Below, one piece after another: positions 1-27,889 of a stretch of DNA of 64,000 nt. How positions within the stretch are numbered: position 1 is the stretch's first letter; the number at the start of each line of letters is the position of its first letter. The DNA comes from Escherichia phage A4: the sequence record ON286972; one strand, given 5' to 3'. Under the pieces are notes generated by a model. It was given only the letters and a program-made list of their open reading frames with translations. It had not been told where the DNA came from and made no database searches. The translations under genes and the position numbers were made by a program.

Positions 1-2
1 AG

Positions 3-239
3 TTGTTGGATGTTGAAATTGCATCATATACTGTCACAAATCAATACGTTATCGAAGATGAACTTCGCAACAAATTTGATATAACACTGTACAGTACTGA
101 AGAAGAGTTGTTTCAGTTAAGTACTATCAGTGATGTGTGCACAACTGTCGAAGAGTTAGCAGACGTTAAGAAAATTATTGACACTGTGTACAACAAGATA
201 TACAATACATTCCATATCGAGAAACAATTGAAAGGGTAA
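3..239 (+). CDS. hypothetical protein, EE-x-Y-F-Q motif family (probably 5'-truncated at window edge)
   Basis: ORF runs from window start; C-terminal TEEELFQLS motif shared with many paralogs. Confidence 0.5.
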   Translation: MLDVEIASYTVTNQYVIEDELRNKFDITLYSTEEELFQLSTISDVCTTVEELADVKKIIDTVYNKIYNTFHIEKQLKG

Positions 240-243
240 CACA

Positions 244-504
244 GTGACTACAGTAGTTCGTAAACGCCACATGATGAACATGGATGAATTCCGTACATTT
301 GACAAATATCGCACTATGTTTCGTATGCTGACACAGGGGCGACCAATTGTCATTGTAACAGAAAATTACATGTCACCGGAAATCATGTTTGGTAATTATG
401 AAAAGGTTTTCATGTTGTATGTGAAGCGTGGATTATTAACTATCAAGACCTTAGCAGAAGCAACTGATGAAGACATGGATGGTGATAACACATTCACTAT
501 GTGA
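244..504 (+). CDS. hypothetical protein
   Basis: ORF (GTG start in track) in same-strand gene train. Confidence 0.4.
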   Translation: MTTVVRKRHMMNMDEFRTFDKYRTMFRMLTQGRPIVIVTENYMSPEIMFGNYEKVFMLYVKRGLLTIKTLAEATDEDMDGDNTFTM

Positions 505-580
505 GGAACTATGAGCGAAAAACCAAAAGAACCATTAGACCGTGATGATGATTACTACGACGAACGTTATGGTGATAAAG

Positions 581-832
581 ATGAGTGAACATAGTGCAGT
601 ACTAAAAAAGATTTTAAATGATATGGGTAGTGAATTTGAAGTTTCAGACGAAGAATATGAATTTTGGAAAAAGGATTTTGAACAACTGTCCGAGAGTGAT
701 AAAGTGTTCAATATGATTGGTGTGGTCAGTCAGTACATATTAGGCGGTGGTCGTGCTAGTGCTTCAATCCTTGCATCGGCAATCATCTGTACTGCCCGAT
801 GGTGTCAAGAAAAAAGTATTGACGATTTCTAA
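581..832 (+). CDS. hypothetical protein
   Basis: ORF 542..832 trimmed to in-frame ATG (MSEHSAVLKK); start uncertain. Confidence 0.4.
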   Translation: MSEHSAVLKKILNDMGSEFEVSDEEYEFWKKDFEQLSESDKVFNMIGVVSQYILGGGRASASILASAIICTARWCQEKSIDDF

Positions 833-890
833 ATTAGGAGATATAATGTTTGTATCAGAGAGAAAGAATGTATAAGGAATTATATTTTGC

Positions 891-919
891 TTGACAATGG
901 AGCAATAATATTATACAAT
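891..919 (+). promoter_or_regulatory. sigma70-type promoter (TTGACA-N17-TACAAT)
   Basis: -35/-10 hexamers with 17-nt spacer about 200 nt upstream of methyltransferase gene. Confidence 0.4.
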
Positions 920-1066
920 TAATCAATCTTATACAACGAGGAAACTCCAATTGAAATATGTAATGATCCTTATCCCAGTGGGGTCATTCCATGAAATTCT
1001 ACCTACTGATGTACTGGATGGTCTTAAAAAGAGAAATCCACATAAGTTTTAAATAGTATTAAAAAG

Positions 1067-1094
1067 GACAATACTGGGCGAATATTCGTCCAGT
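1067..1094. promoter_or_regulatory. 28-bp near-perfect palindrome AATACTGGGCGAATATTCGTCCAGTATT (operator or leader hairpin)
   Basis: dyad symmetry followed by T-rich run, immediately upstream of the methyltransferase SD. Confidence 0.4.
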
Positions 1095-1118
1095 ATTTTA
1101 TTTTATAAAGGATTATAG

Positions 1119-3017
1119 ATGGAACCGATACGTGTACTATCACTATTCAATGGGATGAGTGTTGGGTATATGGCCTTGCAAAGTGCAGGAATACCAGTTG
1201 AAAAGTACTACTCATCTGAAATTGATAAATTTGCTATAGCTGAATCCCAGGCTAACTTTCCTGATATCATCCAATTGGGTGATGTAACTAGATGGAAAGA
1301 ATGGGATATCGAATGGGACAAGATAGATCTTCTGATGGGTGGTTTTCCTTGCTTCCCAGCAGGAACCATGATCATGACAAATGAAGGTCATAAAGATATA
1401 AAAGATATAAAAATTGGTGATATGGTTCTTACACACACTGGACAATACCAAAAAGTATTGAGTATTGGTAGCAAGATTGCACCAACAAGAATCATCACAG
1501 GTCAGGGACATATACCAATTGAATGCACTGATAATCATCCATTTTATGCGAGAAAAATGAGCAAGAAGTGGGATAATGAAAAACGACAATATGTTCGTGA
1601 ATATACAGAACCTACATGGATCGATGCACATGAACTCACAGAAGAACATGCTATATGTAATGTTCGTTGTAATGTGAATTTTCAACATAACAAGAGTGAA
1701 AGCTTTTGGTATTTCATGGGTAGATTTATGGGTGATGGATGGACTTACAAAGTAAAACGACAAAATAGAAAAAATAGTTATCAATATCGTGTTTTTATTT
1801 GCTGTGCTCATGATGAATTTGATGAATTGGTTTCATGTTTTGATGGTATGAATATGAAATATAATTTTGTTAAAGAAAGAACATCTTATAAATTCTATAT
1901 TTGTTCAAAAGAACTAGTTGAATTTTGTGAACAAATGGGTAAGGGTGCTTCAAATAAACAAGTACACCCCACACTTTTCACTGAAAGTATCGCTAATCAG
2001 AAAGCATTCATTGATGGTTATTTTGACGCAGATGGTCACCATGACAAGAAAGATGATTGTTTAAAATTTACATCAACATCAAAGAATGTTATTCTTGGTA
2101 TACAACAACTAATTATGAATGTGTATGGTCGTCATTCTAACATAACATACTTTAAACCGTCTGAAACAAAAGTTATAGAAGAACGTGTTGTTAATCAGAA
2201 GCCGTATTACGTATTAACATACAAAAAAGAAAAGCACCGAAAAGATGAAGCATTCTATGATGATGGGTCATATTCATGGGTAAAAGGTGTTAAATCGAAC
2301 ACCACAACCGGAGAATGGAAAACCGTTTACAATATTGAAGTTGCAGTAGATAACACATATACGGCGAACAATATTGTAGTTCATAACTGCCAAGCGTGGT
2401 CAGTTGCTGGGAAACAAGGCGGTGTGAATGATCCTCGTGGTATGTTATTCCATACAATGGTTGATATTTACCAGCACATAAAAAGTCTCAATCCTAACTT
2501 GAAAGTTCTTTTTGAGAATGTTAAGATGAAGGAAGATTTCAAGGATTATATCAATGGCGTGTTGGAAATGACACCAATTTTGATAAATTCACAAAATTAT
2601 ACAGCACATTATCGCCAACGTTACTACTGGTATAGCTCGGATAAGTTGTTTATTCCAAAACCTCTTATTTTAGCACCAAAATTACAAGATATACTAACTG
2701 GTAATTGGTATACTGATCGTGATAAATCATATTGCATTGACGCAAACTACTTCAAGGGTGGAGATCCGAATCAGTACTTCAATAAGTCAAGAAGACAAAT
2801 CGTTTTCAAAGACCCTGATATCAACAGGAACTTCCTGATTGAGAAGGGTAAACGAAATGTGGACTATCGTCATTTAACAGTACAAGAGTGTTGCATGTTG
2901 CAAGGAATTGATGTAAACTACTTCAAAGTTAGTAGTTCAACACAAGCGTACAAAATGCTTGGTAATGGCTGGACAGCACCTGTTATAGAACATTTACTAC
3001 GTGATATATTCTTTTAA
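1119..3017 (+). CDS. DNA (cytosine-5)-methyltransferase precursor interrupted by an intein
   Basis: N-extein ends ...LLMGGFP, C-extein starts CQAWSVAG (together motif IV GGFPCQ); ENV, RHLTVQECCMLQG and GNGW motifs in C-extein; SD AAGGA upstream. Confidence 0.85.
   Translation: MEPIRVLSLFNGMSVGYMALQSAGIPVEKYYSSEIDKFAIAESQANFPDIIQLGDVTRWKEWDIEWDKIDLLMGGFPCFPAGTMIMTNEGHKDIKDIKIGDMVLTHTGQYQKVLSIGSKIAPTRIITGQGHIPIECTDNHPFYARKMSKKWDNEKRQYVREYTEPTWIDAHELTEEHAICNVRCNVNFQHNKSESFWYFMGRFMGDGWTYKVKRQNRKNSYQYRVFICCAHDEFDELVSCFDGMNMKYNFVKERTSYKFYICSKELVEFCEQMGKGASNKQVHPTLFTESIANQKAFIDGYFDADGHHDKKDDCLKFTSTSKNVILGIQQLIMNVYGRHSNITYFKPSETKVIEERVVNQKPYYVLTYKKEKHRKDEAFYDDGSYSWVKGVKSNTTTGEWKTVYNIEVAVDNTYTANNIVVHNCQAWSVAGKQGGVNDPRGMLFHTMVDIYQHIKSLNPNLKVLFENVKMKEDFKDYINGVLEMTPILINSQNYTAHYRQRYYWYSSDKLFIPKPLILAPKLQDILTGNWYTDRDKSYCIDANYFKGGDPNQYFNKSRRQIVFKDPDINRNFLIEKGKRNVDYRHLTVQECCMLQGIDVNYFKVSSSTQAYKMLGNGWTAPVIEHLLRDIFF
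1350..2387 (+). mobile_element. intein (346 aa) with LAGLIDADG homing-endonuclease domain
   Basis: starts CFPAGTMIM, TDNHPF (block B), two LAGLIDADG-like motifs (FMGRFMGDGW, FIDGYFDADGH), ends NNIVVHN followed by Cys +1. Confidence 0.8.
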
Positions 3018-3032
3018 CCATCAGAGGCACAA

Positions 3033-4417
<1,385 letters not shown>

Positions 4418-4421
<4 letters not shown>

Positions 4422-4861
4422 CAGTACTGCACCAATTAAAGAAAGTTAAACATCCGGTAGTTTATAATGATTGGCTACGCCAGAAGGAGATGGGGGACTT
4501 TTACTACCCAAAGTCTAAAGTACTGGCAACGTCAAAAACTATATACCTGAAATATAACGATGAAGATTGTTTGTGTATTCAAATGGGATTCCATCCTAAA
4601 GTTGGATTGTTTACATCAAATCAAACATTTTATAAATTTAGAATTCAAAAAGATACATTTAGTATTCACATTGAAAAGCATGACGTAGAAGATACAATAT
4701 ATCGTGTGGAAAGTGAGCCTTTGAATCTTGTTGGGATTCCGTACAATAATTTAGAAGAAATGTACTTTCAGCAGTTGACAATACAAGAAGACTTTGGTAT
4801 GATAGGACTTCAAGAGTTAGAGATGATTAAACAAATTCGTGATATCTACTTTAAGGAGTAA
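4418..4861 (+). CDS. hypothetical protein, EE-x-Y-F-Q family (EEMYFQQ)
   Basis: track ORF starts with TTG; ATG at 4418 overlaps upstream stop (ATGA). Confidence 0.55.
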
Positions 4862-4862
4862 T

Positions 4863-5006
4863 TATGCCAGTGCGTAACAGTACATCACGCTTTACACTTC
4901 AACAGAAAGCAGATCTTCTGAATATGGCTAATAAAGATTCTAATTTTTACTATCTAGTACTTGGTGGTTCAGTTGAAAAGATTGATCTACGCGAGTGTAT
5001 GAAATA
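4863..5006 (+). CDS. small hypothetical protein (about 47 aa)
   Basis: short ORF with AAGGAG SD, not in track (<60 aa); coordinates approximate. Confidence 0.4.
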
Positions 5007-5019
5007 ATAAGGGGACAAA

Positions 5020-5190
5020 ATGAGTCTGAGTGAATCCTGGAAACAGTTCAAAGAAGAGATTGGTTATCGTGGTGTATCGAGTGAACCAATCAATCGTACT
5101 GAAAGCATTAAGGCCAGTACTAACGGTACTACCTATGACCGATATGACCCACGTTACGGGTTACATGAAGAAGTCAAAAAAGAAGATTGA
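5020..5190 (+). CDS. small hypothetical protein (about 56 aa)
   Basis: short ORF with AAGGGG SD; preferred over overlapping track ORF 5030..5230; coordinates approximate. Confidence 0.35.
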   Translation: MSLSESWKQFKEEIGYRGVSSEPINRTESIKASTNGTTYDRYDPRYGLHEEVKKED

Positions 5191-5253
5191 CAATATATCG
5201 AGAGTGTGTGATAATACTCTCGTCTTTTAATTAAACAAAAAGGTAAAATAAAA

Positions 5254-5820
5254 ATGGCTGGATGTGAAAAGATTTGTGAATACAGTGATGAATATGTTGG
5301 ACATGAAATGTATCACCATAAACGCAATCATATTCAAGTACTATCTAAGCACAGAAAACATTTCCGTGGTAAAGAGGCAACTCTTTTTGTTTTTGAAAAT
5401 GGTTTGAAAGAAGTTTGGAAATCAGGTGGTCAATCCGACGCATCATTGGAATGTGTGAATCCCAATCCAACAGAAGAGAATTGGGATAATTATGAATACT
5501 TCCGCATGTTTAAACGTACACCGTGGGGTAAATCCGAATGCTATGCTGTGTTTTTTGAAAACCTCGATGAATACAAAGCTGCACTGAAACAGTTCCAGCA
5601 ACGACTGGTAATGGAATATGCATATTACCTGTACGTACCAGATGTACCAGGTAAAGTCGGTGGTATGTATCTTAACTTCTCAACTGATCTGAGTGCAGTT
5701 AAGCGTCGTTTGCGTCGTCTGGTAGGAACACGCAATCTTAAAATCAAATACATGAAAGGTGATTTCTGCGATTTCTATAATGAACAGAAATTGATTAGAA
5801 TCGGTTCAGAGGACATGTAA
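5254..5820 (+). CDS. hypothetical protein
   Basis: ATG ORF with AAAGG SD. Confidence 0.6.
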   Translation: MAGCEKICEYSDEYVGHEMYHHKRNHIQVLSKHRKHFRGKEATLFVFENGLKEVWKSGGQSDASLECVNPNPTEENWDNYEYFRMFKRTPWGKSECYAVFFENLDEYKAALKQFQQRLVMEYAYYLYVPDVPGKVGGMYLNFSTDLSAVKRRLRRLVGTRNLKIKYMKGDFCDFYNEQKLIRIGSEDM

Positions 5821-6074
5821 TGGAACATCTTAAAACTATATGGGAACAAGTGAAAATCATCGTTGAAGGTGTTGTATTCGCTCTTATGACCTTAATCACA
5901 ATTGTAGTTGCTTTGATTCCATCCATCATTTATCAATATAATGGTGGAACTAACACTGATATTGACTTAGCATTGCGTATATTAGGTTTTGTGATTTGGT
6001 TACTATTTGTTGTTTGGGTGATGAACCGCAAAAGTCCATATGAGCAAGATGAGAAATCGGATAATGAGTATTGA
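5820..6074 (+). CDS. small membrane protein
   Basis: ATG overlapping upstream stop (TAATG); two hydrophobic segments. Confidence 0.55.
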   Translation: MEHLKTIWEQVKIIVEGVVFALMTLITIVVALIPSIIYQYNGGTNTDIDLALRILGFVIWLLFVVWVMNRKSPYEQDEKSDNEY

Positions 6075-6858
6075 AAAGATATTAAAAGATAACTTAACAA
6101 AGTACTTGATGAATTGCGACCGTGATGTACGCCGTAAATTTAACGGGTACTTAAAACGTTATCCTTACATCATGTTTTGTCCTATTAAAATTAATAACGA
6201 GGAAGAACACGATTGTCTTCACATTGGATTCACAAATCGTGTACTGAAAAAAAGTGAATTGTCTGAATCGGACGTATGGATTGAAACAGATGCACATGAG
6301 ACTAATGTTTTCTATCTGTATACTCCATATGCAGAGATTGTACATAACATATGTGATGCTGTATTCATTAGTACTGATGAGTTTCCAAAACTTTATATAA
6401 AGCCAGCACCACTTAAAGTTGCTATCAATGCACCATCTGTCGGGGAGGATGTATTTGGTACAATACAGTACTGTGTAGAAGAACATTTGGATCGTGAGAT
6501 TTCAATTGAAATGGCAGACATGCTTGCTGATGCTGTATCTGAATGTACGGCCCTTGAAAGTTACCTTATATATGATAAATCGTATTATAATTTGAATAAC
6601 ATTGTTGAAGGTGAAATCACAGTATGTATCAAATACAACAGTGAAGTTATTGGGTTTGTTCATTGTAAAGGGCATGATTTGTACCGTAAAAACATATCAG
6701 TGGTTGATCTACAGAAATGGAATCAGGTGATGGATTTAATCATTGACAACAGCGGTGTAAATGATATACTCGTTAAACAATATAGAGTAATCAACCCTAA
6801 AGATGACTGTGATTTGTACTTCCCAGTACAAGGTGTAACTGACGAGGATAAGCGATGA
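6064..6858 (+). CDS. hypothetical protein
   Basis: track ORF 6040..6858; start placed at in-frame ATG 6064 (6040 also possible). Confidence 0.5.
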   Translation: MSIEKILKDNLTKYLMNCDRDVRRKFNGYLKRYPYIMFCPIKINNEEEHDCLHIGFTNRVLKKSELSESDVWIETDAHETNVFYLYTPYAEIVHNICDAVFISTDEFPKLYIKPAPLKVAINAPSVGEDVFGTIQYCVEEHLDREISIEMADMLADAVSECTALESYLIYDKSYYNLNNIVEGEITVCIKYNSEVIGFVHCKGHDLYRKNISVVDLQKWNQVMDLIIDNSGVNDILVKQYRVINPKDDCDLYFPVQGVTDEDKR

Positions 6859-7118
6859 AAATTTTAGAATACGTATATGGCAGTGAACATCAAAGCACTC
6901 TTTATGTTGGTAATGAATTCAGTCCAGACCCTCTGGATATGTTACAACGCATTCAAGGGTTGAAGAAAGATATCAGTACTAAGGAACCGTTTGTTAAGCG
7001 TGTTGACGTTCAATCACGCAATCCAGAAGAATATATTACCACAGATGCTGATATTAAAAAACTTCTTGCAAAGAATGGTTATGTTGAGTATAATCCTCAC
7101 ATCGTCAATCTTCAATAA
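6855..7118 (+). CDS. hypothetical protein
   Basis: ATG with GAGGA SD, ATGA overlap with upstream stop. Confidence 0.5.
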   Translation: MKILEYVYGSEHQSTLYVGNEFSPDPLDMLQRIQGLKKDISTKEPFVKRVDVQSRNPEEYITTDADIKKLLAKNGYVEYNPHIVNLQ

Positions 7119-7128
7119 GGGAAAGCGA

Positions 7129-7404
7129 ATGACCGAATCAACAGAAGTACTGAAAGAACGCCTATCTAAACTCCGTGAAGAACGCCGCATTGTTCGTCTG
7201 GATTGGGATATTCTTAACCGCAAGGATGAACAATCCTATGCCAACTGGAGTTCAGATAAAGTTCGTAACGAACGTTCTAAAGAAGATGCTAAACAATTTT
7301 CAGCACTGTCCAAGCGTCTATCATGTCTGAATAGTGAGATTACTGGAATTCAAAAAGAAATCACTGAGCGTTTACTATCTGAACTGAGATCAATGTATGA
7401 ATAA
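7129..7404 (+). CDS. hypothetical charged/coiled-coil protein
   Basis: track ORF 6991..7404 trimmed to ATG after upstream stop, SD AGGGAAAG. Confidence 0.5.
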   Translation: MTESTEVLKERLSKLREERRIVRLDWDILNRKDEQSYANWSSDKVRNERSKEDAKQFSALSKRLSCLNSEITGIQKEITERLLSELRSMYE

Positions 7405-7693
7405 ACATGAAGTTCTAGTTTTTGATAATAAGTTCTATGTACCAACATGTGGAAGTACTGAATCATATTATCTAATTAATAATATCATGTCAGCAACCCA
7501 AACGTGTTGCCGTCAACGTCCAGGTGAGTACGAGTTCAGCCAGACTATCGGGTATTACCGTTATACTGAGTTGGAAAGTTTCACAATTGATTCTAAAAAA
7601 GTTATTGACGTTCTTATCAGTAACGGTTACAATGAACAAGAATCAAATAACACTGATTTACCTGTAGTTGAGATTGTTCTAAAAAATTCTTAA
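7397..7693 (+). CDS. hypothetical protein
   Basis: ATG ORF overlapping upstream stop. Confidence 0.5.
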   Translation: MNKHEVLVFDNKFYVPTCGSTESYYLINNIMSATQTCCRQRPGEYEFSQTIGYYRYTELESFTIDSKKVIDVLISNGYNEQESNNTDLPVVEIVLKNS

Positions 7694-7812
7694 GAAGTTG
7701 TGGAACAATTTCGAATCCAATGATATAATGTTTTCATCGGCAGATGTTAAAATGCAAATCACTTCCTCAATGATTGAGGGTTCTATAAAAAAGAAATAAA
7801 AGGGTATTAACA

Positions 7813-8022
7813 ATGGCACAAGAAATTAAAGCACAAGTACTAGACGTAACTGATTTTGACCGCACTGTAAACTACATTCAGTTCCAAATTCACCAAGCGG
7901 AAGAAGCACTTGCTCAATTCCACGGTACTGGTGCTAAGCCAATCATGTTCGCTCATCTCATCACTTGGAAGAAAAATCTCCAAGAAGAACTACACGAACT
8001 GCGTAAAGCAAATCGTAAGTAA
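7813..8022 (+). CDS. hypothetical protein
   Basis: ATG ORF, SD-like AAAGGG, extended -10 (TGATATAAT) upstream, terminator downstream. Confidence 0.55.
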   Translation: MAQEIKAQVLDVTDFDRTVNYIQFQIHQAEEALAQFHGTGAKPIMFAHLITWKKNLQEELHELRKANRK

Positions 8023-8028
8023 TTAGGG

Positions 8029-8058
8029 TTTATGCCCTGTCCATATGGATGGGGCTTT
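8029..8058 (+). terminator. rho-independent terminator
   Basis: GC-rich hairpin around CCATATGG followed by CTTTTT. Confidence 0.5.
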
Positions 8059-8087
8059 TTAATCAAAAGTATAGAGGAAAAAAGAAA

Positions 8088-8627
8088 ATGGGTGTAGAAT
8101 ATTATTTTTTATTTGGATGCCTTAGTGTTCTGGTGTTGATAACAGTAGGATTAATTATTAATACATGCATAAGTGGTTCTAAATATTTTCGTTCTTTCCA
8201 GTTTCTTATGTCAGCTATGTCATATAATAAAGAAGCTGATACAGCCATTAATCTATTACTAGATAAGACTGAAGCTGGAATACTTATTGCGAAATTATCA
8301 CCATCTGATGACACGATTATGTTTGTCAATCCAAACGATGAAGAAACAACACTTGTAGCAAATCAATATCGCACTAGTCATGCAGATCCACGTTATGTTA
8401 AAGTTCTTAATTCAGAAGGTGAAATCTGGATTGGTTCTAAATACTATGCTTATGGATACATCCATCGTTACTACGGTCAACGAAAGGAAGAATTTTATAA
8501 GAAACGTCCAAGTTTAAATACATTTAAACGTATTCTAAAACTTGAACACGAGTTAAAGAAACCAAGTTCAGAAAACGCAGCACCAAATCATGTGCATAAG
8601 CGTGATAGTGATATCGTGGAGTTATAA
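8088..8627 (+). CDS. membrane-anchored hypothetical protein
   Basis: track ORF 8049..8627 trimmed to ATG after AGAGGA SD; N-terminal hydrophobic helix. Confidence 0.55.
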   Translation: MGVEYYFLFGCLSVLVLITVGLIINTCISGSKYFRSFQFLMSAMSYNKEADTAINLLLDKTEAGILIAKLSPSDDTIMFVNPNDEETTLVANQYRTSHADPRYVKVLNSEGEIWIGSKYYAYGYIHRYYGQRKEEFYKKRPSLNTFKRILKLEHELKKPSSENAAPNHVHKRDSDIVEL

Positions 8628-8923
8628 TGTCACCAGATGAAGCAAGTAAAGTCCTCGTTGAAGTTCAAAATCGACTTCTACACGTAATGGACGCAGTAAA
8701 AGATTTACCACAAGGATATCAGTATAAGGTTCGCGAAATGCTTTCTTGTGCTGAAACCGTAGTCTCGATGTATTGTGATGTTCAACACGGAATTATCCCT
8801 GAAGTTCTGAAGAAAGATGTAACAGAAGAACGAGAAATCCCTGAAGAAGTTCAGGTAACACAAGTTGTTAAACAAAAAACAATCCTTGATATTAGTGATA
8901 TCAATCTAGACTTAGGAGATTAA
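8627..8923 (+). CDS. hypothetical protein
   Basis: ATG ORF, SD GGAG. Confidence 0.5.
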   Translation: MSPDEASKVLVEVQNRLLHVMDAVKDLPQGYQYKVREMLSCAETVVSMYCDVQHGIIPEVLKKDVTEEREIPEEVQVTQVVKQKTILDISDINLDLGD

Positions 8924-8926
8924 AAA

Positions 8927-9069
8927 TGAGTTCACAGAAAGTTGATTTGGTTTTAAAACTCCAAGAGATTCAAGCACTTGCAAAAAATCTCGATGAAAAA
9001 AGTACTAAAATGGTAGACGACCTCTGTGCATCTATTTTAGTAGTGTTTGCTGAAGCAGAAAAGAAATAA
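8927..9069 (+). CDS. small hypothetical protein (about 47 aa)
   Basis: short ORF with AGGAG SD followed by terminator; coordinates approximate. Confidence 0.4.
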
Positions 9070-9080
9070 AATATATTACC

Positions 9081-9107
9081 CAGTACTTAGATACTGGGTA
9101 TTTTTTT
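9081..9107 (+). terminator. rho-independent terminator
   Basis: hairpin CCCAGTACT-TAG-ATACTGGG followed by TATTTTTTT. Confidence 0.6.
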
Positions 9108-9118
9108 AAGGAAAATTC

Positions 9119-9511
9119 ATGACTGATACTGACTTACAAAAACTCATTGATTACATCTATGAAATGGTTCAAGATAAAAACAATATAAATTACATAGCTT
9201 CCGGCTCAAAACCAATTGGAAATGTAATGACATATTCTTTGTCTTTGTGGTTACATCAGTACTATAAGGTTGATTGTGTGTATTATCGCCCAGATATCAA
9301 TGCATTTTATTTTGTGAACCCAGCAGTATTGTTTGACCGAACAAAGAAGCTTCCAGATGATGAATCATTTATACCTAGTCCATTCTATGTATCCGAATCA
9401 GACGAAGACGAGTTCCAAAAAAATACTTCTTTAGAGCGTGATGCGGGATGTATCCCTTATAAACTCAAAGATAAAATTGATTTCATTGTAGAAGTTATGA
9501 AAACATGTTGA
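9119..9511 (+). CDS. hypothetical protein (DEDEFQK variant motif)
   Basis: ATG ORF with AAGGA SD. Confidence 0.55.
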   Translation: MTDTDLQKLIDYIYEMVQDKNNINYIASGSKPIGNVMTYSLSLWLHQYYKVDCVYYRPDINAFYFVNPAVLFDRTKKLPDDESFIPSPFYVSESDEDEFQKNTSLERDAGCIPYKLKDKIDFIVEVMKTC

Positions 9512-9537
9512 TAAGTACAGTGAAACTCTGATATAAT
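9508..9537 (+). promoter_or_regulatory. sigma70-type promoter (TTGATA-N18-TATAAT)
   Basis: hexamers upstream of gene 9562. Confidence 0.4.
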
Positions 9538-9561
9538 ACTATGACTTACTAAGGAGAACAT

Positions 9562-10131
9562 ATGAACTTTATTAAATTCAACACATATGAGTCAGAAGCA
9601 TACTTTAATACAAATAATAAATTTAATATTATTCTTAAAGACGGAACGGTTGTTATCGGAGTATCATTGCTTTCATTTGATGGCGAAAAACTCAAAACTG
9701 TTTATAAATTCACCAATCTTGATGGTGATTACTGGGATACGTCAGATGTATCTAAAATTTGCACACATTATGTATTTGAATCTATTGAAGTTGGTGATGG
9801 CTGGGCATTGACCTGTAATGGTAATAAAGTATTTTCTGGTAACATATTTGGAGTAATTTCCAGTAAAGAAATCGTAGACCATCATCTTCATGTTCTCAAT
9901 AATAACGCCAACACTTATACACCTGATAATATCAAAATTCACGATATTGTAACATACACTGATTATAATGGTTTCAGACATAAAGCAATCGTAACTGAAG
10001 TTAAAAAACCAAAAAATTATTTCGACCACGGTTTAATTGAAGTATATATGGTAGGTGGCGAAAAACAATACTTTGATCATTTCACTTATACTGGTTGGGA
10101 TAGATTCCTAACCGTTATTGAGGAATACTAA
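9562..10131 (+). CDS. hypothetical protein
   Basis: ATG ORF with AAGGAG SD. Confidence 0.6.
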   Translation: MNFIKFNTYESEAYFNTNNKFNIILKDGTVVIGVSLLSFDGEKLKTVYKFTNLDGDYWDTSDVSKICTHYVFESIEVGDGWALTCNGNKVFSGNIFGVISSKEIVDHHLHVLNNNANTYTPDNIKIHDIVTYTDYNGFRHKAIVTEVKKPKNYFDHGLIEVYMVGGEKQYFDHFTYTGWDRFLTVIEEY

Positions 10132-10132
10132 C

Positions 10133-10609
10133 ATGCCGATTCGTGGTGTGCCAGAACCATTAAGTGAAGTTCTTAAGAATGTCAATGTTGGAACACGAGA
10201 AGTTAATCAGCGACGTGGTAATATATATTACTTTAAAACTACAGGAATGAGTTCTATACAGGTTGTTATTGGCACATCTATTACGGTCACGCGTGTTCTT
10301 GATGGTAGTACTGACTTCGTTGGATACAATGTACTTACTAATAAAGTAACACATACATATAAATGGAGTGGTTATAAAACCATCACATATGAGTTTGACT
10401 TAGCTAGAACTGAAGAAGAACGATTTATGTTGAGTACTATTAATCCAGCAAACTATCCTGACCTTGATGCATTTTTGCTAATTTTAAAATTGTATAATGA
10501 AGCAAATGAGAAAGCTAAAGAGTATGATAGAATCATGTATGAACGTAGAAAAGAACGTTCTCAAAAAAGTTATGATCTGTATGAAAGTTACATTCATAGA
10601 TCCAAATGA
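10133..10609 (+). CDS. hypothetical protein
   Basis: track ORF starts TTG; ATG at 10133 after GAGGAA SD. Confidence 0.5.
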   Translation: MPIRGVPEPLSEVLKNVNVGTREVNQRRGNIYYFKTTGMSSIQVVIGTSITVTRVLDGSTDFVGYNVLTNKVTHTYKWSGYKTITYEFDLARTEEERFMLSTINPANYPDLDAFLLILKLYNEANEKAKEYDRIMYERRKERSQKSYDLYESYIHRSK

Positions 10610-10647
10610 AATAAATAGTTACCTATAGATTAATCTAAGGAGTAACT

Positions 10648-10998
10648 ATGTTTAAAAGTAATCTTAAAGTAGAATTAATTAATAACGAAGGTCAACGTTG
10701 GAAAGTTCTAGAAGATCTAGAATACGAGTATAACGGTATTAAAATTGTTGTTCCCGCAGGTTTCAAAACTGATTTTGCAAGCGTCCCACGTATTCGTGGT
10801 ATATTTGAACTAGTCGGTAATATGGGTCACGCCGCAGCAACAATACATGACTACTTGTATAGTACTGGTATGCTATCCCGTAAAGATAGTGATAAGGTGC
10901 TACTACAGGCTCTACGTGCTACTGAAGTTGGTAAGCCACGTAGTATGATTATGTATGCTGGTGTTCGTGTATTCGGTTGGTTGTTTTACAAAAAATAA
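10648..10998 (+). CDS. conserved phage protein with GFKTDFASVP motif (resembles DUF1353-type proteins; from memory)
   Basis: ATG ORF, SD AAGGAG; motif recalled from memory, not searched. Confidence 0.5.
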   Translation: MFKSNLKVELINNEGQRWKVLEDLEYEYNGIKIVVPAGFKTDFASVPRIRGIFELVGNMGHAAATIHDYLYSTGMLSRKDSDKVLLQALRATEVGKPRSMIMYAGVRVFGWLFYKK

Positions 10999-11007
10999 AA
11001 CTATTTA

Positions 11008-11037
11008 TGAGTACTGCTTGCAGTACTCATATTTTTA
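11008..11037 (+). terminator. rho-independent terminator
   Basis: hairpin TGAGTACTG-CTTG-CAGTACTCA followed by TATTTTT. Confidence 0.55.
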
Positions 11038-11050
11038 CTCCGAGGTACAT

Positions 11051-11266
11051 ATGAAAGTTATTATTAATCCAGCATCAAACTTTTTTGGTGAGGTTTTCGG
11101 TGCAGACAGTATTGTGCATAATTTTCCACGAATTGAAATCGACGGAATTGAAGTCCAACGATATGGCAACCTGTACTATGTAATAGATGAAAATGGTTCT
11201 ATTGTACACGACAGTGCATTCTTTACTGAAGAAGAGATGAAACACTTGATAGTACTGGACAAATAA
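11051..11266 (+). CDS. hypothetical protein
   Basis: track ORF 10955..11266 trimmed to ATG after CGAGG SD. Confidence 0.45.
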   Translation: MKVIINPASNFFGEVFGADSIVHNFPRIEIDGIEVQRYGNLYYVIDENGSIVHDSAFFTEEEMKHLIVLDK

Positions 11267-11267
11267 A

Positions 11268-11453
11268 ATGACACTAGATGAATGGCATAAAAGAAACGAT
11301 AAACTGTATGAAAATGATATTTTCTTCTTCGCATTCGGTGGTCTTGGAAGTATTTTACGTGATAGTGATGATTATTACAATTCGATCATTAGCTATTATG
11401 ATTGCTATGGGACTATGTACGCTATAGCACGAACAACGGGATGTTACACATGA
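11268..11453 (+). CDS. small protein, MT-x-x-EW family (MTLDEWHK)
   Basis: ATG ORF; N-terminus related to MTHEEWL paralogs. Confidence 0.45.
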   Translation: MTLDEWHKRNDKLYENDIFFFAFGGLGSILRDSDDYYNSIISYYDCYGTMYAIARTTGCYT

Positions 11454-11632
11454 CACATCAAGAATGGTTAGATGAATTAAAATTCAAACATGATCATTTT
11501 GGCTTTGGTGTACGCCAGGGTCATTATGATATTTTAAAAGATAAGAACAAGTTCAAATCATTTGTCTTGGATGAGGATAGTAATCGCTGGTTCATCTATG
11601 AGCTTGCGGTTAGAGGTAAAAAAATTGACTAG
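11450..11632 (+). CDS. small protein, MTHEEWL family
   Basis: ATG overlapping upstream stop (ATGA); MTHQEWLDELKFKHDHFG...GHYDIL. Confidence 0.5.
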   Translation: MTHQEWLDELKFKHDHFGFGVRQGHYDILKDKNKFKSFVLDEDSNRWFIYELAVRGKKID

Positions 11633-11677
11633 TACTGATATATATGCTATTCTTTTGTTTTAAACAGGAGTTCAATA

Positions 11678-12177
11678 ATGCTCATTACGCATGTACCGGA
11701 AAGTATTACTGAAATTTTAAATAAAATTAATGTTAATGAGTTTGAACGAACAGTTCGAAAACAGGGTACTTATCACTATAAGCACAAAGATGGTGATCAT
11801 CAAATAAGCTTAGATCAGAATTATCAAACTCTAACAATTAAAATGGTTACTCGTTGGAATTTTGTTCGTAAAGACACTATTATCTGTGATTTTGGTAAAA
11901 GTCTACTTAGAAAATGTTTCTCTGAAACAAATGGTATCTATCCAAACCCGAATAGAATTTTTACATATCGATACATCACAGATGAAGATGCACATTTCCA
12001 AGAGAGCTTGGTATGCGATAATAAGTACTTTCCCGCATTTTCTGATAATTTGAAATTAAAAGAACTATATGACTATTTCTTGAATGACAATATCCTGTGG
12101 GATGAAGAATTAAAAAAACGACAGATAGAACGTGAAAAGAAAAAAGTATGGACTGGCTCACATTGGATGCAACGTAA

Positions 12178-12181
<4 letters not shown>
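11678..12181 (+). CDS. hypothetical protein (DEDAHFQES variant motif)
   Basis: ATG ORF with CAGGAG SD. Confidence 0.55.
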
Positions 12182-12671
<490 letters not shown>

Positions 12672-12688
12672 TAATTAAAGGTTAAACC

Positions 12689-13067
<379 letters not shown>

Positions 13068-13068
13068 C

Positions 13069-14083
<1,015 letters not shown>

Positions 14084-14086
14084 TTC

Positions 14087-14242
<156 letters not shown>

Positions 14243-14270
14243 CAAAACGAAATGATAATAGGAAATTAAA

Positions 14271-14456
14271 ATGCAACTTTTAATTCTTTCAATATTGTAT
14301 ATTATTATAATGGTTCCTATATCAATACGTTTAATTATACTTGAACGATTTTTATCGAAACATGGAAATAGATCTATGATATTTGTACCAATCGGGCTTA
14401 TATTGTTTGGTATATTTGCATTTATAATGGGAATTAACGCTACATTCATTTCATAG
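14271..14456 (+). CDS. small membrane protein
   Basis: ATG ORF with AGGAAA SD; two hydrophobic helices. Confidence 0.5.
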   Translation: MQLLILSILYIIIMVPISIRLIILERFLSKHGNRSMIFVPIGLILFGIFAFIMGINATFIS

Positions 14457-14465
14457 GAAACAAAT

Positions 14466-14947
<482 letters not shown>

Positions 14948-14954
14948 AAGAACG

Positions 14955-14987
<33 letters not shown>

Positions 14988-14988
14988 C

Positions 14989-15044
<56 letters not shown>

Positions 15045-15045
15045 T

Positions 15046-15231
<186 letters not shown>

Positions 15232-15295
15232 TCATTGAATGGGGTGTATTATGGTTCAAGAAGAAAACTGGGGTTTTTAACCTAACGAGGTCAAT

Positions 15296-15438
<143 letters not shown>

Positions 15439-15439
15439 A

Positions 15440-15570
<131 letters not shown>

Positions 15571-15571
15571 T

Positions 15572-16006
<435 letters not shown>

Positions 16007-16014
<8 letters not shown>

Positions 16015-16378
16015 TCTAATAGTACGTATAATGCAAGATGTTCGAAAGAACCTTTATACAGGCAATTTTGACGATTCGAACATTAAACTATTATGTTATG
16101 ATGGTTTTACCTTGGTACATCCATCTGAATCAAATAATATATACATATCATATACTTCCAAAAATCAATTATATCAATTATATCAATTTGATATATATAG
16201 CACAATGGCTAAAATAACTTTGGACGTATCCAAGCAGCCTATCCTTATCGCTGTACCAGAATGCAATTACACTGAAGAATCACTGTTTCAGTACTCAATG
16301 ATAAATGACATTGGCGACTTGACATTAGAAGAGATTAACGCTATACTAGATGTATCACGTTTGATTAATGCCTACTAA
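16007..16378 (+). CDS. hypothetical protein, EE-x-Y-F-Q family (TEESLFQYS)
   Basis: ATG ORF overlapping upstream stop; C-terminal tail similar to 15577 gene. Confidence 0.5.
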
Positions 16379-16391
16379 TTTGGAGATTAAT

Positions 16392-16583
16392 ATGTTCTGG
16401 AATTTGTTATGTCTTTTTGGTCGTACCTTTGTTCTTGCAATTATCCATACACCAGGTATTCGTAATTTTGTTTCTTATGAATTTAAGAAAAATTATCACA
16501 ACAATACTGAAGTTCGTGCCACTAAAATGTGCAAAGACTTCAATGTAACAGTACCACCATTTAAGAAGTACGAGGATGAATAA
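16392..16583 (+). CDS. small hypothetical protein
   Basis: track ORF 16368..16583 trimmed to ATG after GGAG SD. Confidence 0.4.
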   Translation: MFWNLLCLFGRTFVLAIIHTPGIRNFVSYEFKKNYHNNTEVRATKMCKDFNVTVPPFKKYEDE

Positions 16584-16861
16584 TGGAATTCATTGTAGCT
16601 CCTGAAGAACTCAAGACCTTTAAGTTCAAAGATAATTATACGTATTCAAATCATTCCTTGAATTCAATTCATGTAATTGCAATGGTTGCATCTGAATATA
16701 AAGATAACCCGTGTATTGATTTTAAAACCACTGATGGTGAATATACATGGGTGATCCCACGAGATAAATATAGTTATCAAGGGGCAGTAGAAATTCGTGA
16801 CTCGATTCTAAAACAAATCGAAGATGGACATACTCATCCTAAACTAAACATTCAGTACTGA
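16583..16861 (+). CDS. hypothetical protein
   Basis: ATG overlapping upstream stop, SD GAGGA. Confidence 0.5.
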   Translation: MEFIVAPEELKTFKFKDNYTYSNHSLNSIHVIAMVASEYKDNPCIDFKTTDGEYTWVIPRDKYSYQGAVEIRDSILKQIEDGHTHPKLNIQY

Positions 16862-17111
16862 AAATGTTATACCGATAGCTTCTGGAGCAGTACTGAATCC
16901 TCCTTTTTCTTTCAGAAGCTATCACATATTTTGTCGTAAAATGGTACTGTGAGTGGTTTGTCTTTCCATTCTCTCCAGGTCCAGTACCTATCATTGTAGT
17001 TCTGGAGAGATATAACATGTATAATGTTTTTTACCTCCTGTTTATCATTATATATGTCACTAAACGAGTAATAACTACCCTCCCTCTAGGTTATTACTTT
17101 TGATTTTGGTA

Positions 17112-17140
17112 TTGACTTTCAATGCCGCAAATGTTATACT
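17112..17140 (+). promoter_or_regulatory. sigma70-type promoter (TTGACT-N17-TATACT)
   Basis: hexamers in 330-bp noncoding region upstream of gene 17191. Confidence 0.45.
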
Positions 17141-17143
17141 TAA

Positions 17144-17172
17144 GGCTGATTCAAATTGAATCGGCCTTTTTT
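17144..17172 (+). terminator. terminator-like hairpin in 5' leader (GGCTGATTCAAATTGAATCGGCC + T-run), possible attenuator
   Basis: hairpin plus TTTTTTCTTTTT between promoter -10 and the SD of gene 17191. Confidence 0.4.
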
Positions 17173-17190
17173 CTTTTTAAGGAGAACACC

Positions 17191-17586
17191 ATGAATTTGG
17201 TTGTAGAAGACGATATCTTTTCCGATGCTATTGAGTATATGTACAATCTTGTTAGACTTAATGAATTTGTACAACGTCATACATTGACACATAAGGATGG
17301 GATTATTACTGTTGGTGCATACATTAATGGATACTTAACCGAGTTTTACAATTGTGATAACATTTTTATAACCATTGATAACATCACTACGACTAATGAC
17401 ATATCCATTGATTTATTCAAAGATCATATTGAAATTGATATAGACAAGATGATTGCCATCGATATCGATCCTGTAATGTATGAGTTACAAGAAGAAATGT
17501 ATGAGCAATTATGCTTTGTGTATGATTTGAGTAAAATTTCATTCTTTGACTTACGCAGAATCTGTTACGTAGTAGGTAAGTTATGA
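17191..17586 (+). CDS. hypothetical protein
   Basis: track ORF 17122..17586 trimmed to ATG after AAGGAG SD. Confidence 0.5.
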   Translation: MNLVVEDDIFSDAIEYMYNLVRLNEFVQRHTLTHKDGIITVGAYINGYLTEFYNCDNIFITIDNITTTNDISIDLFKDHIEIDIDKMIAIDIDPVMYELQEEMYEQLCFVYDLSKISFFDLRRICYVVGKL

Positions 17587-18056
17587 CAAATATACGTGAT
17601 GTATTAATGCAGTACGGTATCAGTGCTGAAATGCTTTCAGATGAAATTATTAAAAACTCTAAGATAGAATTTATGTTTAATAGACACCGTTATCCAGGTG
17701 TTTATATTAATCGATCCTGTTCATTAATTTACTTTGAATACATGGATGAATATGTTATCATTGAAGAAATCAAACTCAATGGATGGCACTGTACAATTGA
17801 GTTAACGAAACCAAGAACCAAGAACAAAATAGTGATTAGTATTAATATCTATTACGATATTAGTACTGAAGATGGAGCCTCACACTTTGTTCGAGTTTTG
17901 TCATCTGATGATAATTTAAAGTTAGATTATAAATCAGAAGAAGAATACTTTCAGGAAAGTTTAATCAATGATTTAGTTTTTGATTATAACTTTTATAAAG
18001 AACTATCAAAAAACTTCGTTGAATGTATCAAACTATATGAGGAAGAGGACGAATGA
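17583..18056 (+). CDS. hypothetical protein, EE-x-Y-F-Q family (SEEEYFQES)
   Basis: ATG overlapping upstream stop (ATGA). Confidence 0.55.
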   Translation: MTNIRDVLMQYGISAEMLSDEIIKNSKIEFMFNRHRYPGVYINRSCSLIYFEYMDEYVIIEEIKLNGWHCTIELTKPRTKNKIVISINIYYDISTEDGASHFVRVLSSDDNLKLDYKSEEEYFQESLINDLVFDYNFYKELSKNFVECIKLYEEEDE

Positions 18057-18472
18057 AAAATTATAAGTTAAGTACAGAATACAATGAAATGATCATCAAT
18101 GCACTTGATAATCATGGTGAGTTTCGTTATCCAGGTGAAGGATTGAACGTTTACTTCGGAGATGAAAACTGGTGCTATCTGAATAATGGTGTTCTGACTA
18201 TCCATATTCAGGATATTAAAAGTGATGTATCATTTGGAATTCACCTAGTTCCCGGTACATTGGTTAATGACGCACGTATCAATGTTATTGTCAATGAGAA
18301 CGAATTCTTTCATGATGATTTTGAAGATGTTAAAATGGCAGCTAGTAAGTTGTATACTACTGAAGAAGAGTACTTTCAGGATAGCACTGTGAAAGATATG
18401 CGAATCCCTTATGAGTTGATGGTTTCAGTACAGAAATTTATTGAGGATTTCAGATGCGATTTGATCAAGTAG
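18053..18472 (+). CDS. hypothetical protein, EE-x-Y-F-Q family (TEEEYFQDS)
   Basis: ATG overlapping upstream stop. Confidence 0.55.
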   Translation: MKNYKLSTEYNEMIINALDNHGEFRYPGEGLNVYFGDENWCYLNNGVLTIHIQDIKSDVSFGIHLVPGTLVNDARINVIVNENEFFHDDFEDVKMAASKLYTTEEEYFQDSTVKDMRIPYELMVSVQKFIEDFRCDLIK

Positions 18473-18921: not shown

Positions 18922-19024
18922 ACGACCACATAACTGTCTGATTTGAATGGGTTGACATTTAACCAATGTAAAAGAATTGTTTCTATATGTAATCGAATTA
19001 CATATGAGTACACGGAGATATAAA

Positions 19025-20356: not shown

Positions 20357-20359
20357 AAA

Positions 20360-20867: not shown

Positions 20868-20868
20868 T

Positions 20869-21210: not shown

Positions 21211-21220
21211 TGGAGTTCAA

Positions 21221-22063: not shown

Positions 22064-22071
22064 TGAGAACG

Positions 22072-22100
22072 AAAAAGCCTCCATATGGAGGCTTTTTTTA
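22072..22100. terminator. bidirectional rho-independent terminator between convergent genes
   Basis: hairpin AAAGCCTCC-ATAT-GGAGGCTTT flanked by A-run and T-run. Confidence 0.65.
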
Positions 22101-27888: not shown

Positions 27889-27889
27889 A

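What the first reader, a model, noticed from the sequence alone, without database searches (positions are those of the whole stretch)
1067..1094. 28-bp near-perfect palindrome just upstream of the intein-containing methyltransferase gene
AATACTGGGCGAATATTCGTCCAGTATT is almost self-complementary (core CGAATATTCG) and lies about 25 nt before the methyltransferase SD, downstream of a promoter-like element at 891..919. It could be an operator for controlled methyltransferase expression, such as a C-protein-like site, or a leader hairpin.
Basis: seen in the sequence. Interest (0 to 1): 0.4.

Follow-up and report, generated by a model that had tools for sequence, protein, structure and literature searches.

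The report
Ordinary terminator hairpin before phage methyltransferase
The 28-base palindrome is real, but it is most likely an ordinary transcription-stop hairpin that closes a small lineage-specific insert in a jumbo E. coli phage, not a protein-binding switch for the methyltransferase gene.

Summary
The palindrome exists, but at 1070..1097, 3 nt from the stated coordinates. Its one imperfect pair (G1078/T1089) is a G-U wobble on the + strand, the strand of every gene here, and an A-C mismatch on the other. It is followed directly by TTATTTTAT. As + strand RNA it folds into a 12-bp stem with a 4-nt loop (-16.8 kcal/mol, z = -6.4). On my terminator score it ranks 7th of 17 + strand hairpins; shuffles give 0.28.

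The window is a roughly 85%-identical relative of the Asteriusvirus jumbo coliphages (121Q, UE-S1, TH47). In those phages the gap before the methyltransferase gene is about 52 nt and has no hairpin. Here about 256 nt (848..1103) replace about 24 nt. This segment carries a promoter (891..919), a 33-codon ORF (951..1052) and the hairpin as its 3' end, the layout of a phage "moron".

No promoter lies between the hairpin and the methyltransferase ATG (1119), so the gene must be read by transcripts that pass the hairpin. That would make it a constitutive attenuator, an arrangement seen at five or six other genes in the window.

I found no C-protein gene, C-box, N-terminal DNA-binding domain, antiterminator or Rfam family. 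It is an ordinary element of low interest.

The parts
819..847 (+). Promoter-like site P1 (TTGACG-17-TATAAT). Its -10 hexamer is shared with relatives, and homology with them ends just after it.
848..1103 (+). Lineage-specific segment of about 256 nt that replaces about 24 nt of the short spacer found in 121Q, UE-S1 and TH47. It holds P2, a small ORF and the hairpin.
   Evidence: Alignment. Megablast matches stop at 847/849 and resume at 1104. No homologue found elsewhere. Same segment in two near-identical contigs.
891..919 (+). Promoter-like site P2 (TTGACA-17-TACAAT, 11 of 12) with an AT-rich upstream stretch. The predicted start is near 926.
   Evidence: Every site scoring 11 or 12 of 12 (window 1..46000) is on the + strand.
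951..1052 (+). 33-codon ORF with a TTG start, GAGGA (938..942) 8 nt upstream and a TAA stop 17 nt before the hairpin. Coding status is unproven. An alternative 21-codon ORF lies at 991..1056.
   Evidence: No family or homologue. Not called as a gene on the two public contigs.
1070..1097 (+). The palindrome. As + strand RNA it forms a 12-bp stem (5 G-C, 1 G-U, 6 A-U) with a 4-nt loop.
1098..1106 (+). T-rich tail TTATTTTAT. Counted from the last two stem T's, 9 of 11 bases are T.
1108..1112 (+). Shine-Dalgarno AAGGA of the methyltransferase gene, left unpaired by the hairpin.
1119..3017 (+). C-5 cytosine DNA methyltransferase interrupted by a Hint plus LAGLIDADG intein. This is the gene downstream of the hairpin.

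Best explanation
The palindrome is the DNA image of a Rho-independent (intrinsic) transcription terminator read on the + strand. Host sigma-70 RNA polymerase starts at P1 (819..847) or P2 (891..919) and transcribes a short unit of about 180 to 250 nt that contains a 33-codon ORF, or possibly a small RNA. It then makes the 12-bp/4-nt-loop hairpin followed by UUAUUUUAU, where a fraction of polymerases release. The hairpin is the 3' module of a roughly 256-nt promoter/ORF/terminator cassette with a moron-like layout. This phage lineage acquired the cassette between the old methyltransferase promoter and the methyltransferase ribosome-binding site. No promoter lies between the hairpin and the ATG at 1119, so the intein-bearing methyltransferase can only be expressed from transcripts that read through. 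The hairpin therefore also acts as a constitutive, unregulated attenuator of methyltransferase transcription. Shown: the sequence anatomy, the strand asymmetry, the position, the statistics, and the insertion relative to relatives. Inferred: actual termination, its efficiency, and the effect on methyltransferase level.
For: 1. Anatomy. The stem has 12 bp with 5 G-C pairs, the loop is 4 nt, and a T-rich tail follows directly. The consensus scan flags it as the top terminator-like site in 1..6000.
2. Stability. The hairpin is -16.8 kcal/mol (MFE of the 51-nt segment -17.2, z = -6.4, 0 of 200 shuffles as good). Each stem pair has probability 0.78 to 1.0 in the 186-nt transcript.
3. Strand asymmetry. 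The only imperfect pair is G-U on the + strand and A-C on the - strand (-16.8 against -12.8 kcal/mol). The - strand copy is not scored as a terminator.
4. Score. On a d'Aubenton-Carafa-type score it gets d = 21, 7th of 17 + strand hits. Shuffles give 0.28 hits with d >= 0 and none with d >= 20.
5. Orientation. High-scoring hairpins follow gene orientation: + strand hits lie in the + strand gene block, and the - strand hairpin family lies at 55 to 62 kb.
6. Position. It is intergenic, 17 nt after the stop of the small ORF. Other terminators in the window mostly sit 5 to 14 nt after a stop.
7. Recurring layout. The order hairpin, T-run, SD, ATG with no promoter in between recurs at 3541, 9077, 11006, 17144 and 36110, and probably at 8034.
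8. Insertion. Relatives 121Q, UE-S1 and TH47 have a roughly 52-nt spacer without the hairpin, and homology resumes at about 1104, just after the T-tail. The hairpin therefore belongs to the inserted cassette.
9. Host polymerase. Rak2-like phages are reported to carry RpoD-like promoters clustered in regions of short ORFs, and 74 predicted Rho-independent terminators were reported in phage CBB (PMC5259590).
Against: There is no experimental or transcript data. No diverged homologue of the insert was found, so covariation could not be tested; the two other contigs carry an identical hairpin. The T-tail is interrupted by two A's and half of the stem pairs are A-U, so efficiency may be only partial. 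A G-U rather than A-C mismatch is worth at most about one bit of evidence. A strong stop 21 nt before a gene with no promoter of its own looks wasteful, although the same layout recurs in this phage.
Confidence: 0.8

Rival explanations
1. It is a DNA operator. A dimeric phage or host protein (C-protein-like, or the methyltransferase itself) binds the dyad and controls methyltransferase expression, for example as a roadblock.
For: A 28-bp near-perfect dyad lies immediately upstream of a DNA methyltransferase gene, and methyltransferases of restriction-modification systems are often autoregulated through palindromes (established knowledge). The dyad is statistically non-random.
Against: No HTH or C-protein family appears among the six flanking ORFs, and no endonuclease partner was found. 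There is no C-box. The methyltransferase has no N-terminal extension; the Pfam domain starts at residue 4. The site does not overlap a promoter and is unique in 64 kb. It is absent from relatives that carry the same methyltransferase gene. The T-tail and the G-U asymmetry are not explained by a DNA site. The only other comparable palindrome in the window is also a terminator-like hairpin.
Confidence: 0.05
2. It is a regulated leader or attenuator. The hairpin would be the terminator arm of a switch, either coupled to translation of the 33-codon ORF or a riboswitch, that tunes methyltransferase expression.
For: A short ORF ends 17 nt before the hairpin, and the methyltransferase lacks a promoter of its own. 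CCCAGT (974..979) and TACTGGATG (1012..1020) could in principle pair with the hairpin arms (read from the sequence).
Against: No competing structure exists. Forbidding either arm of the terminator costs 12 to 14 kcal/mol, the stem has pair probability near 1, and the nascent RNA up to 1085 holds the 5' arm only weakly. No Rfam family approaches its threshold (best 17 bits against a gathering score of 90). A ribosome at the stop codon would not reach the stem. There is no run of regulatory codons.
Confidence: 0.06
3. The P2-to-hairpin unit encodes a small regulatory RNA of about 180 nt. The hairpin plus U-tail would be its terminator and Hfq or 3'-stability module, and the 33-codon ORF would be fortuitous.
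For: The unit has its own near-consensus promoter and terminator. The region folds better than shuffles (z = -3.0). The ORF uses a TTG start, has no homologues and is not called as a gene on public contigs. The only substitution seen, A991G, is non-synonymous in that frame.
Against: There is no Rfam match. The z-score is largely due to the terminator itself. A GAGGA lies 8 nt before the TTG. No target can be named. This rival changes what the unit makes, not what the hairpin does.
Confidence: 0.15
4. It is a functionless by-product. Two diverged copies of the phage's abundant AGTACT-type word, or a recombination scar at the edge of the insertion, happen to form a dyad.
For: AGTACT is about 10-fold over-represented, and several hairpin stems in the window are built from two copies. 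The outer arms here, AATACT and AGTATT, are each one transition from AGTACT. The hairpin lies at the right edge of the insert.
Against: The dyad extends 12 bp, well beyond the hexamer, and includes a G+C-rich inner stem. It has a correctly placed T-tail on the transcribed strand and lies after a stop codon. Such a score was never reached in 25 shuffles.
Confidence: 0.04

Closest known systems
Rho-independent (intrinsic) terminators of E. coli and its phages
   Same: A G+C-containing stem-loop of 12 bp with a 4-nt loop, followed directly by a U-rich tract. It lies on the transcribed strand, in an intergenic position just after a stop codon, and has an A-rich stretch upstream.
   Different: The U-tract is interrupted (UUAUUUUAU) and the outer half of the stem is A-U. 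It sits only 21 nt before the next start codon with no promoter in between, so it must be leaky for the downstream gene to be expressed.
Morons: autonomous promoter-gene-terminator units inserted between adjacent phage genes (as summarised in PMC2839356)
   Same: A promoter, a short ORF and a terminator are present here as one segment between two genes that are adjacent in relatives.
   Different: It is very small (about 256 nt, with a 33-codon ORF of unproven coding status). It points the same way as its neighbours. It is inserted inside a leader, so it separates the downstream gene from its former promoter.
PeSL (promoter-early stem-loop) cassettes of T4-type phages (PMC2839356, PMC4122927)
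   Same: A stem-loop acts as terminator or attenuator in an early region rich in sigma-70-like promoters and orphan ORFs. The PeSL papers propose that such stem-loops damp read-through from upstream promoters.
   Different: This hairpin has no promoter fused to it and its sequence is unique. True PeSL-like composites, with the -35 hexamer inside the hairpin, do occur elsewhere in the window: 29379, 37276, 37633, 39000, 40289, 41924, 45118 and 47110, and by the sequence listing also near 44390.
C-protein operators (C-boxes) and SsoII-type methyltransferase autoregulation in restriction-modification systems
   Same: Only that a palindrome lies upstream of a C-5 DNA methyltransferase gene.
   Different: There is no C gene, no endonuclease gene, no GACT-N3-AGTC boxes, no N-terminal HTH on the methyltransferase and no overlap with a promoter.

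Membership tests
Intrinsic (Rho-independent) terminator | Stable stem-loop with G-C pairs, a stem of about 5-14 bp and a loop of 3-8 nt | tested here: met
   12 bp, 5 G-C plus 1 G-U, loop of 4 nt, -16.8 kcal/mol, z = -6.4
Intrinsic (Rho-independent) terminator | U-rich tract immediately 3' of the stem | tested here: met
   TTATTTTAT at 1098..1106; T-score 4.45 and d = 21 against none at d >= 20 in 25 shuffles
Intrinsic (Rho-independent) terminator | On the transcribed strand, downstream of a promoter and of a stop codon, in intergenic DNA | tested here: met
   All ORFs and strong promoters here are on the + strand; the stop at 1050..1052 lies 17 nt upstream; the - strand version is weaker and does not score
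Intrinsic (Rho-independent) terminator | Releases RNA polymerase in vivo or in vitro | not testable with these tools
   Needs Term-seq, 3' RACE, a reporter assay or in vitro transcription
Intrinsic (Rho-independent) terminator | Pairing conserved through compensatory changes in homologues | tested here: inconclusive
   Only identical copies were found; there is no diverged homologue in any collection searched
Moron-like inserted transcription unit | Present between two genes that are adjacent in close relatives | tested here: met
   848..1103 is absent from 121Q, UE-S1 and TH47, which have a spacer of about 52 nt
Moron-like inserted transcription unit | Own promoter and own terminator flanking a gene | tested here: inconclusive
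   The promoter-like site 891..919 and the terminator-like hairpin are present, but the 33-codon ORF has no support beyond an SD-like GAGGA
PeSL composite promoter/terminator | Stem-loop fused to a sigma-70-like promoter, repeated as a conserved motif across the region | tested here: not met
   No promoter follows or overlaps the hairpin; the sequence is unique in the window
C-protein operator (C-box) of restriction-modification systems | Adjacent gene for a small HTH controller protein | tested here: not met
   No Pfam HTH or controller family in the six flanking ORFs at E <= 0.1
C-protein operator (C-box) of restriction-modification systems | Paired inverted repeats of the GACT-N3-AGTC type upstream of the regulated gene (consensus recalled from memory) | tested here: not met
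   The nearest match with at most 1 mismatch is at 4146; 12 matches in the window against 18 expected
C-protein operator (C-box) of restriction-modification systems | Linked restriction endonuclease gene | tested here: not met
   Flanking ORFs have no endonuclease family; in 121Q and UE-S1 the neighbours are annotated as hypothetical proteins
SsoII/EcoRII-type autoregulated C-5 methyltransferase | N-terminal DNA-binding extension ahead of catalytic motif I | tested here: not met
   Pfam DNA_methylase aligns from residue 4 (profile position 1); motif I, LFNGMSVG, starts at residue 9
Regulated attenuator or riboswitch | Alternative antiterminator structure competing with the terminator, or a match to a known leader family | tested here: not met
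   Excluding the terminator costs 12-14 kcal/mol and stem probability is near 1; no Rfam match near its threshold

The most novel reading that the evidence does not exclude
The roughly 256-nt cassette was retained because it rewires methyltransferase expression. It would make a micro-protein or a small RNA of about 180 nt from P2, and its terminator would throttle the intein-bearing methyltransferase. Alternatively, an unknown phage factor would act on the dyad, as antiterminator or DNA-binding protein, to time methylation during infection. None of this is excluded, and nothing here points to it specifically.
Probability: 0.1. Interest if true: 0.4.

Novelty: new member of a known kind. Interest (0 to 1): 0.12.

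Why it matters
The value here is mainly correct annotation. The dyad should be marked as a terminator or attenuator at the end of a small inserted transcription unit, not as an operator. It also shows how a jumbo-phage lineage can slip a promoter/ORF/terminator cassette into a gene's leader, separating that gene from its old promoter and leaving it dependent on read-through. If the cassette's product proved to be functional it would gain some interest, but the hairpin itself is a textbook element.

Tried and rejected
**Homologues of the insert, sought for a covariation test**
- blastn (distant mode) of 840..1125 against GenBank phages gave only chance hits of 32 to 39 nt in unrelated phages.
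- The E. coli genome collection gave nothing.
- tblastn of the 33-aa peptide against phages gave nothing.
- The exact 22-mer in IMG/VR gave nothing.
- A back-translated peptide pattern in IMG/VR gave nothing.
- The degenerate hairpin pattern in metagenome contigs gave 100 loci, all unrelated. Their G+C ranges from 0.29 to 0.70, and none resembles the insert beyond the pattern itself and short chance words.
- The upstream protein found only 121Q in IMG/VR.
- The exact methyltransferase protein led to two near-identical contigs with an identical hairpin, so they carry no information on covariation.

**Other tests**
- Rfam at E <= 10 gave only noise.
- There are no other copies of the dyad or its half-sites in the window.
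- No paralogue of the insert exists elsewhere in the window.
- No antiterminator alternative was found.
- The C-box search was negative.
- No tRNA or tmRNA lies near the site.

**Rejected by reading the sequence**
- A promoter overlapping the hairpin, or a T4-late-type TATAAATA box at 1104..1111, was considered and rejected. Either would overlap the SD and leave no usable leader.

**Not done**
- I ran no further search on the 33-aa ORF. Gene callers did not call it on the public contigs, so it is unlikely to be in that collection.

Full report
**1. The observation**

The 28-mer AATACTGGGCGAATATTCGTCCAGTATT is in the window at 1070..1097, three bases to the right of the stated 1067..1094. It is its own reverse complement except for one pair, G1078/T1089. 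The core CGAATATTCG is a perfect palindrome.

In 64 kb there are only two 28-nt palindromes with at most one mismatched pair: this one and 22071..22098. Dinucleotide shuffles give 0.03 per shuffle.

The promoter-like site at 891..919 (TTGACA-17-TACAAT) is confirmed. The stated distance to the ribosome-binding site is not. The dyad ends 10 nt before AAGGA (1108..1112) and 21 nt before the ATG at 1119.

**2. What the sequence looks like as RNA**

On the + strand the single imperfect pair is a G-U wobble. On the - strand it is an A-C mismatch.

- The + strand RNA folds into a 12-bp stem with a 4-nt loop at -16.8 kcal/mol. The MFE of the 51-nt segment is -17.2, with z = -6.4, and none of 200 shuffles folds as well.
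- The - strand version reaches only -12.8 kcal/mol and carries an internal mismatch.
- The consensus scan lists 1070..1097 plus its tail as the best terminator-like site in the first 6 kb.
- On a d'Aubenton-Carafa-type score (hairpin energy per nucleotide plus a weighted T-tail) it scores d = 21, 7th of 17 + strand hits with d >= 0. The - strand copy does not score.
- In 25 dinucleotide shuffles of the whole window the same procedure gave 0.28 hits with d >= 0 and none with d >= 20.
- The scoring hairpins follow gene orientation. The + strand hits all lie in the + strand gene block, and a family of - strand hairpins lies at 55 to 62 kb. This is what real terminators would do.

**3. Genomic context**

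The window belongs to a relative of the Asteriusvirus jumbo coliphages. Megablast identities to 121Q, UE-S1, TH47 and about 40 others are mostly 84 to 85%, and 78% for TH47.

All ORFs and all strong sigma-70-type promoter matches in this part of the window are on the + strand. Rak2-like phages are reported to carry RpoD-like promoters clustered in regions of short ORFs, and 74 predicted Rho-independent terminators were reported in phage CBB (PMC5259590).

The gene downstream (1119..3017) is a C-5 cytosine methyltransferase split by a Hint plus LAGLIDADG intein.

**4. The hairpin is part of a lineage-specific insertion**

In 121Q, UE-S1 and TH47 the upstream gene and the methyltransferase gene are about 52 nt apart. 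That spacer holds a TATAAT and the SD but no hairpin.

The alignment shows homology up to the TATAAT at 842..847 and again from about 1104. Between these points the window has about 256 nt where the relatives have about 24. For all listed relatives, megablast matches stop at 847/849 and, where the methyltransferase gene is similar enough, restart at 1104.

The extra segment carries three things:
- a second promoter-like site, P2, at 891..919;
- a 33-codon ORF (TTG at 951, GAGGA 8 nt upstream, TAA at 1050..1052);
- the hairpin with its T-tail at the very 3' end.

A promoter, a short ORF and a terminator dropped between two adjacent genes is the layout known as a moron, as summarised in PMC2839356.

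The segment has no detectable homologue in GenBank phages, E. coli genomes or IMG/VR. The metagenome contigs that match the hairpin pattern do not resemble it either. It is present on two public contigs that encode the identical methyltransferase, a Logan assembly and NCBI AATHYQ020000001.1. They differ from the window only at A991G, so covariation could not be tested.

**5. Consequence for the methyltransferase**

No promoter-like site lies between the hairpin and the ATG; the + strand scan shows none between 919 and 2067. Only 21 nt remain there, and they are occupied by the T-tail and the SD. I infer that methyltransferase mRNA must come from transcripts started at P1 or P2 that read through the hairpin. 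The hairpin would then act as a constitutive attenuator.

It does not sequester the SD. I found no alternative structure that could switch it off. Forbidding either arm of the terminator costs 12 to 14 kcal/mol, stem pairs have probability 0.78 to 1.0, and the nascent RNA holds the 5' arm only weakly. Rfam gives only noise.

The layout is not peculiar to this gene. The order stop codon, hairpin, T-run, SD, ATG with no promoter in between recurs at 3541, 9077, 11006, 17144 and 36110, and probably at 8034. The PeSL papers on T4-type phages argue that such stem-loops damp read-through in promoter-dense early regions.

**6. The operator reading**

I tested the features that define C-protein control and methyltransferase autoregulation.
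- None of the six flanking ORFs matches an HTH, controller or endonuclease family in Pfam.
- There is no GACT-N3-AGTC box anywhere near; the window has 12 one-mismatch matches against 18 expected.
- The Pfam methyltransferase domain aligns from residue 4, so there is no SsoII-type N-terminal DNA-binding domain.
- The dyad does not overlap a promoter.
- It is unique in the window.
- It is absent from relatives that carry the same gene.
- A DNA site explains neither the T-tail nor the G-U/A-C asymmetry.

I therefore give this reading about 5%.

**7. Residual uncertainty**

Termination itself is inferred, not shown. The tail is interrupted by two A's and half of the stem is A-U, so efficiency is probably partial, which the downstream gene requires.

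Whether the unit produces a 33-aa peptide, the alternative 21-aa peptide (991..1056) or a small RNA of about 180 nt is open. This changes what the cassette makes, not what the hairpin does.

**8. Verdict**

This is a real, non-random dyad that is best explained as an ordinary intrinsic terminator or attenuator closing a small inserted transcription unit. It is a new instance of a well-known kind and of low interest.

More unusual things were seen in passing and are listed separately: a roughly 10-fold genome-wide excess of AGTACT, the complete absence of GCGC, and PeSL-like promoter/terminator composites.

Noticed in passing
whole window; also L001-L004 (UE-S1, TH47, 121Q): The palindromic word AGTACT occurs 176 times in 64 kb against 18.5 expected from dinucleotide content (z about 37). 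CAGTACTG occurs 38 times against 0.9 expected. Copies are spread evenly (7-17 per 4 kb), fall in all three codon phases of + strand ORFs (41/38/34) and are not enriched in intergenic DNA, which points to a DNA-level cause. The same excess of about 10-fold is seen in the relatives' loci. No paper was found with the terms searched.
   Followed up: partly
whole window; L001-L003: GCGC is completely absent (0 against 26.5 expected from a maximal-order Markov model) and GATC is at 0.47 of expectation. GCGC is also absent from the three relatives' loci, although only about 1 copy is expected in each. This suggests strong restriction-type avoidance or another constraint.
   Followed up: partly
window + strand: 29379-29398, 37276-37293, 37633-37650, 39000-39019, 40289-40308, 41924-41941, about 44390 (sequence listing only), 45118-45137, 47110-47129: These are composite terminator/promoter elements resembling the PeSLs of T4-type phages. 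The hairpin GG(G)TTGACTTCGGTCAGCC(C) carries the -35 hexamer in its 5' arm, its T-run forms the promoter spacer, and a TATAAT-like -10 follows in most copies. They sit 5-11 nt after stop codons (37633 overlaps the upstream stop) and ahead of the next gene.
   Followed up: partly
window - strand: 55790-55772, 57042-57022, 58304-58286, 60725-60707, 61943-61923: A family of five near-identical - strand terminator-like hairpins, (T)GCCAGTAC-NNN-GTACTGGC(A) followed by TTTCTTTTTTG. Each stem is built from two CAGTAC/GTACTG half-words.
   Followed up: no
window 819, 13025, 13434, 31285, 31632, 42875 (+ strand): A promoter subclass shares sequence beyond the hexamers, usually (C)AGTACTG directly before TATAAT and GTTT(G/A)TATC directly after it. 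The two copies at 13025 and 13434 are identical over the whole promoter.
   Followed up: no
window 1119-3017; L001, L002, L003: The C-5 methyltransferase is split right after the catalytic GGFPC motif by a Hint plus LAGLIDADG intein. TH47, UE-S1 and ph0011 share an intein-bearing gene of about 1.9 kb, whereas 121Q has an intein-less gene of 861 nt at the same locus.
   Followed up: partly
L105, L106: The identical methyltransferase protein is on record on 6 public contigs. These include a 357,761-bp contig in NCBI assembly GCA_012813795.2 (AATHYQ020000001.1) and a Logan assembly of SRR18825480. Both carry the same insert, with a single difference, A991G.
   Followed up: partly
window 12491-15560: A cluster of six tRNA genes (Ser-tga, Gly-tcc, Ser-gct, Met-cat, Asn-gtt, Thr-tgt) on the + strand, interspersed with strong promoter-like sites.
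   Followed up: no
metagenome loci such as L006, L009, L010, L015, L016: The degenerate hairpin pattern also hit a recurring, unrelated repeat in high-G+C contigs: ccgcgctttggaACTGGGCGACATGTCGCCCAGTtccaaagcggcgac, an extended inverted repeat. It was seen in dozens of contigs.
   Followed up: no
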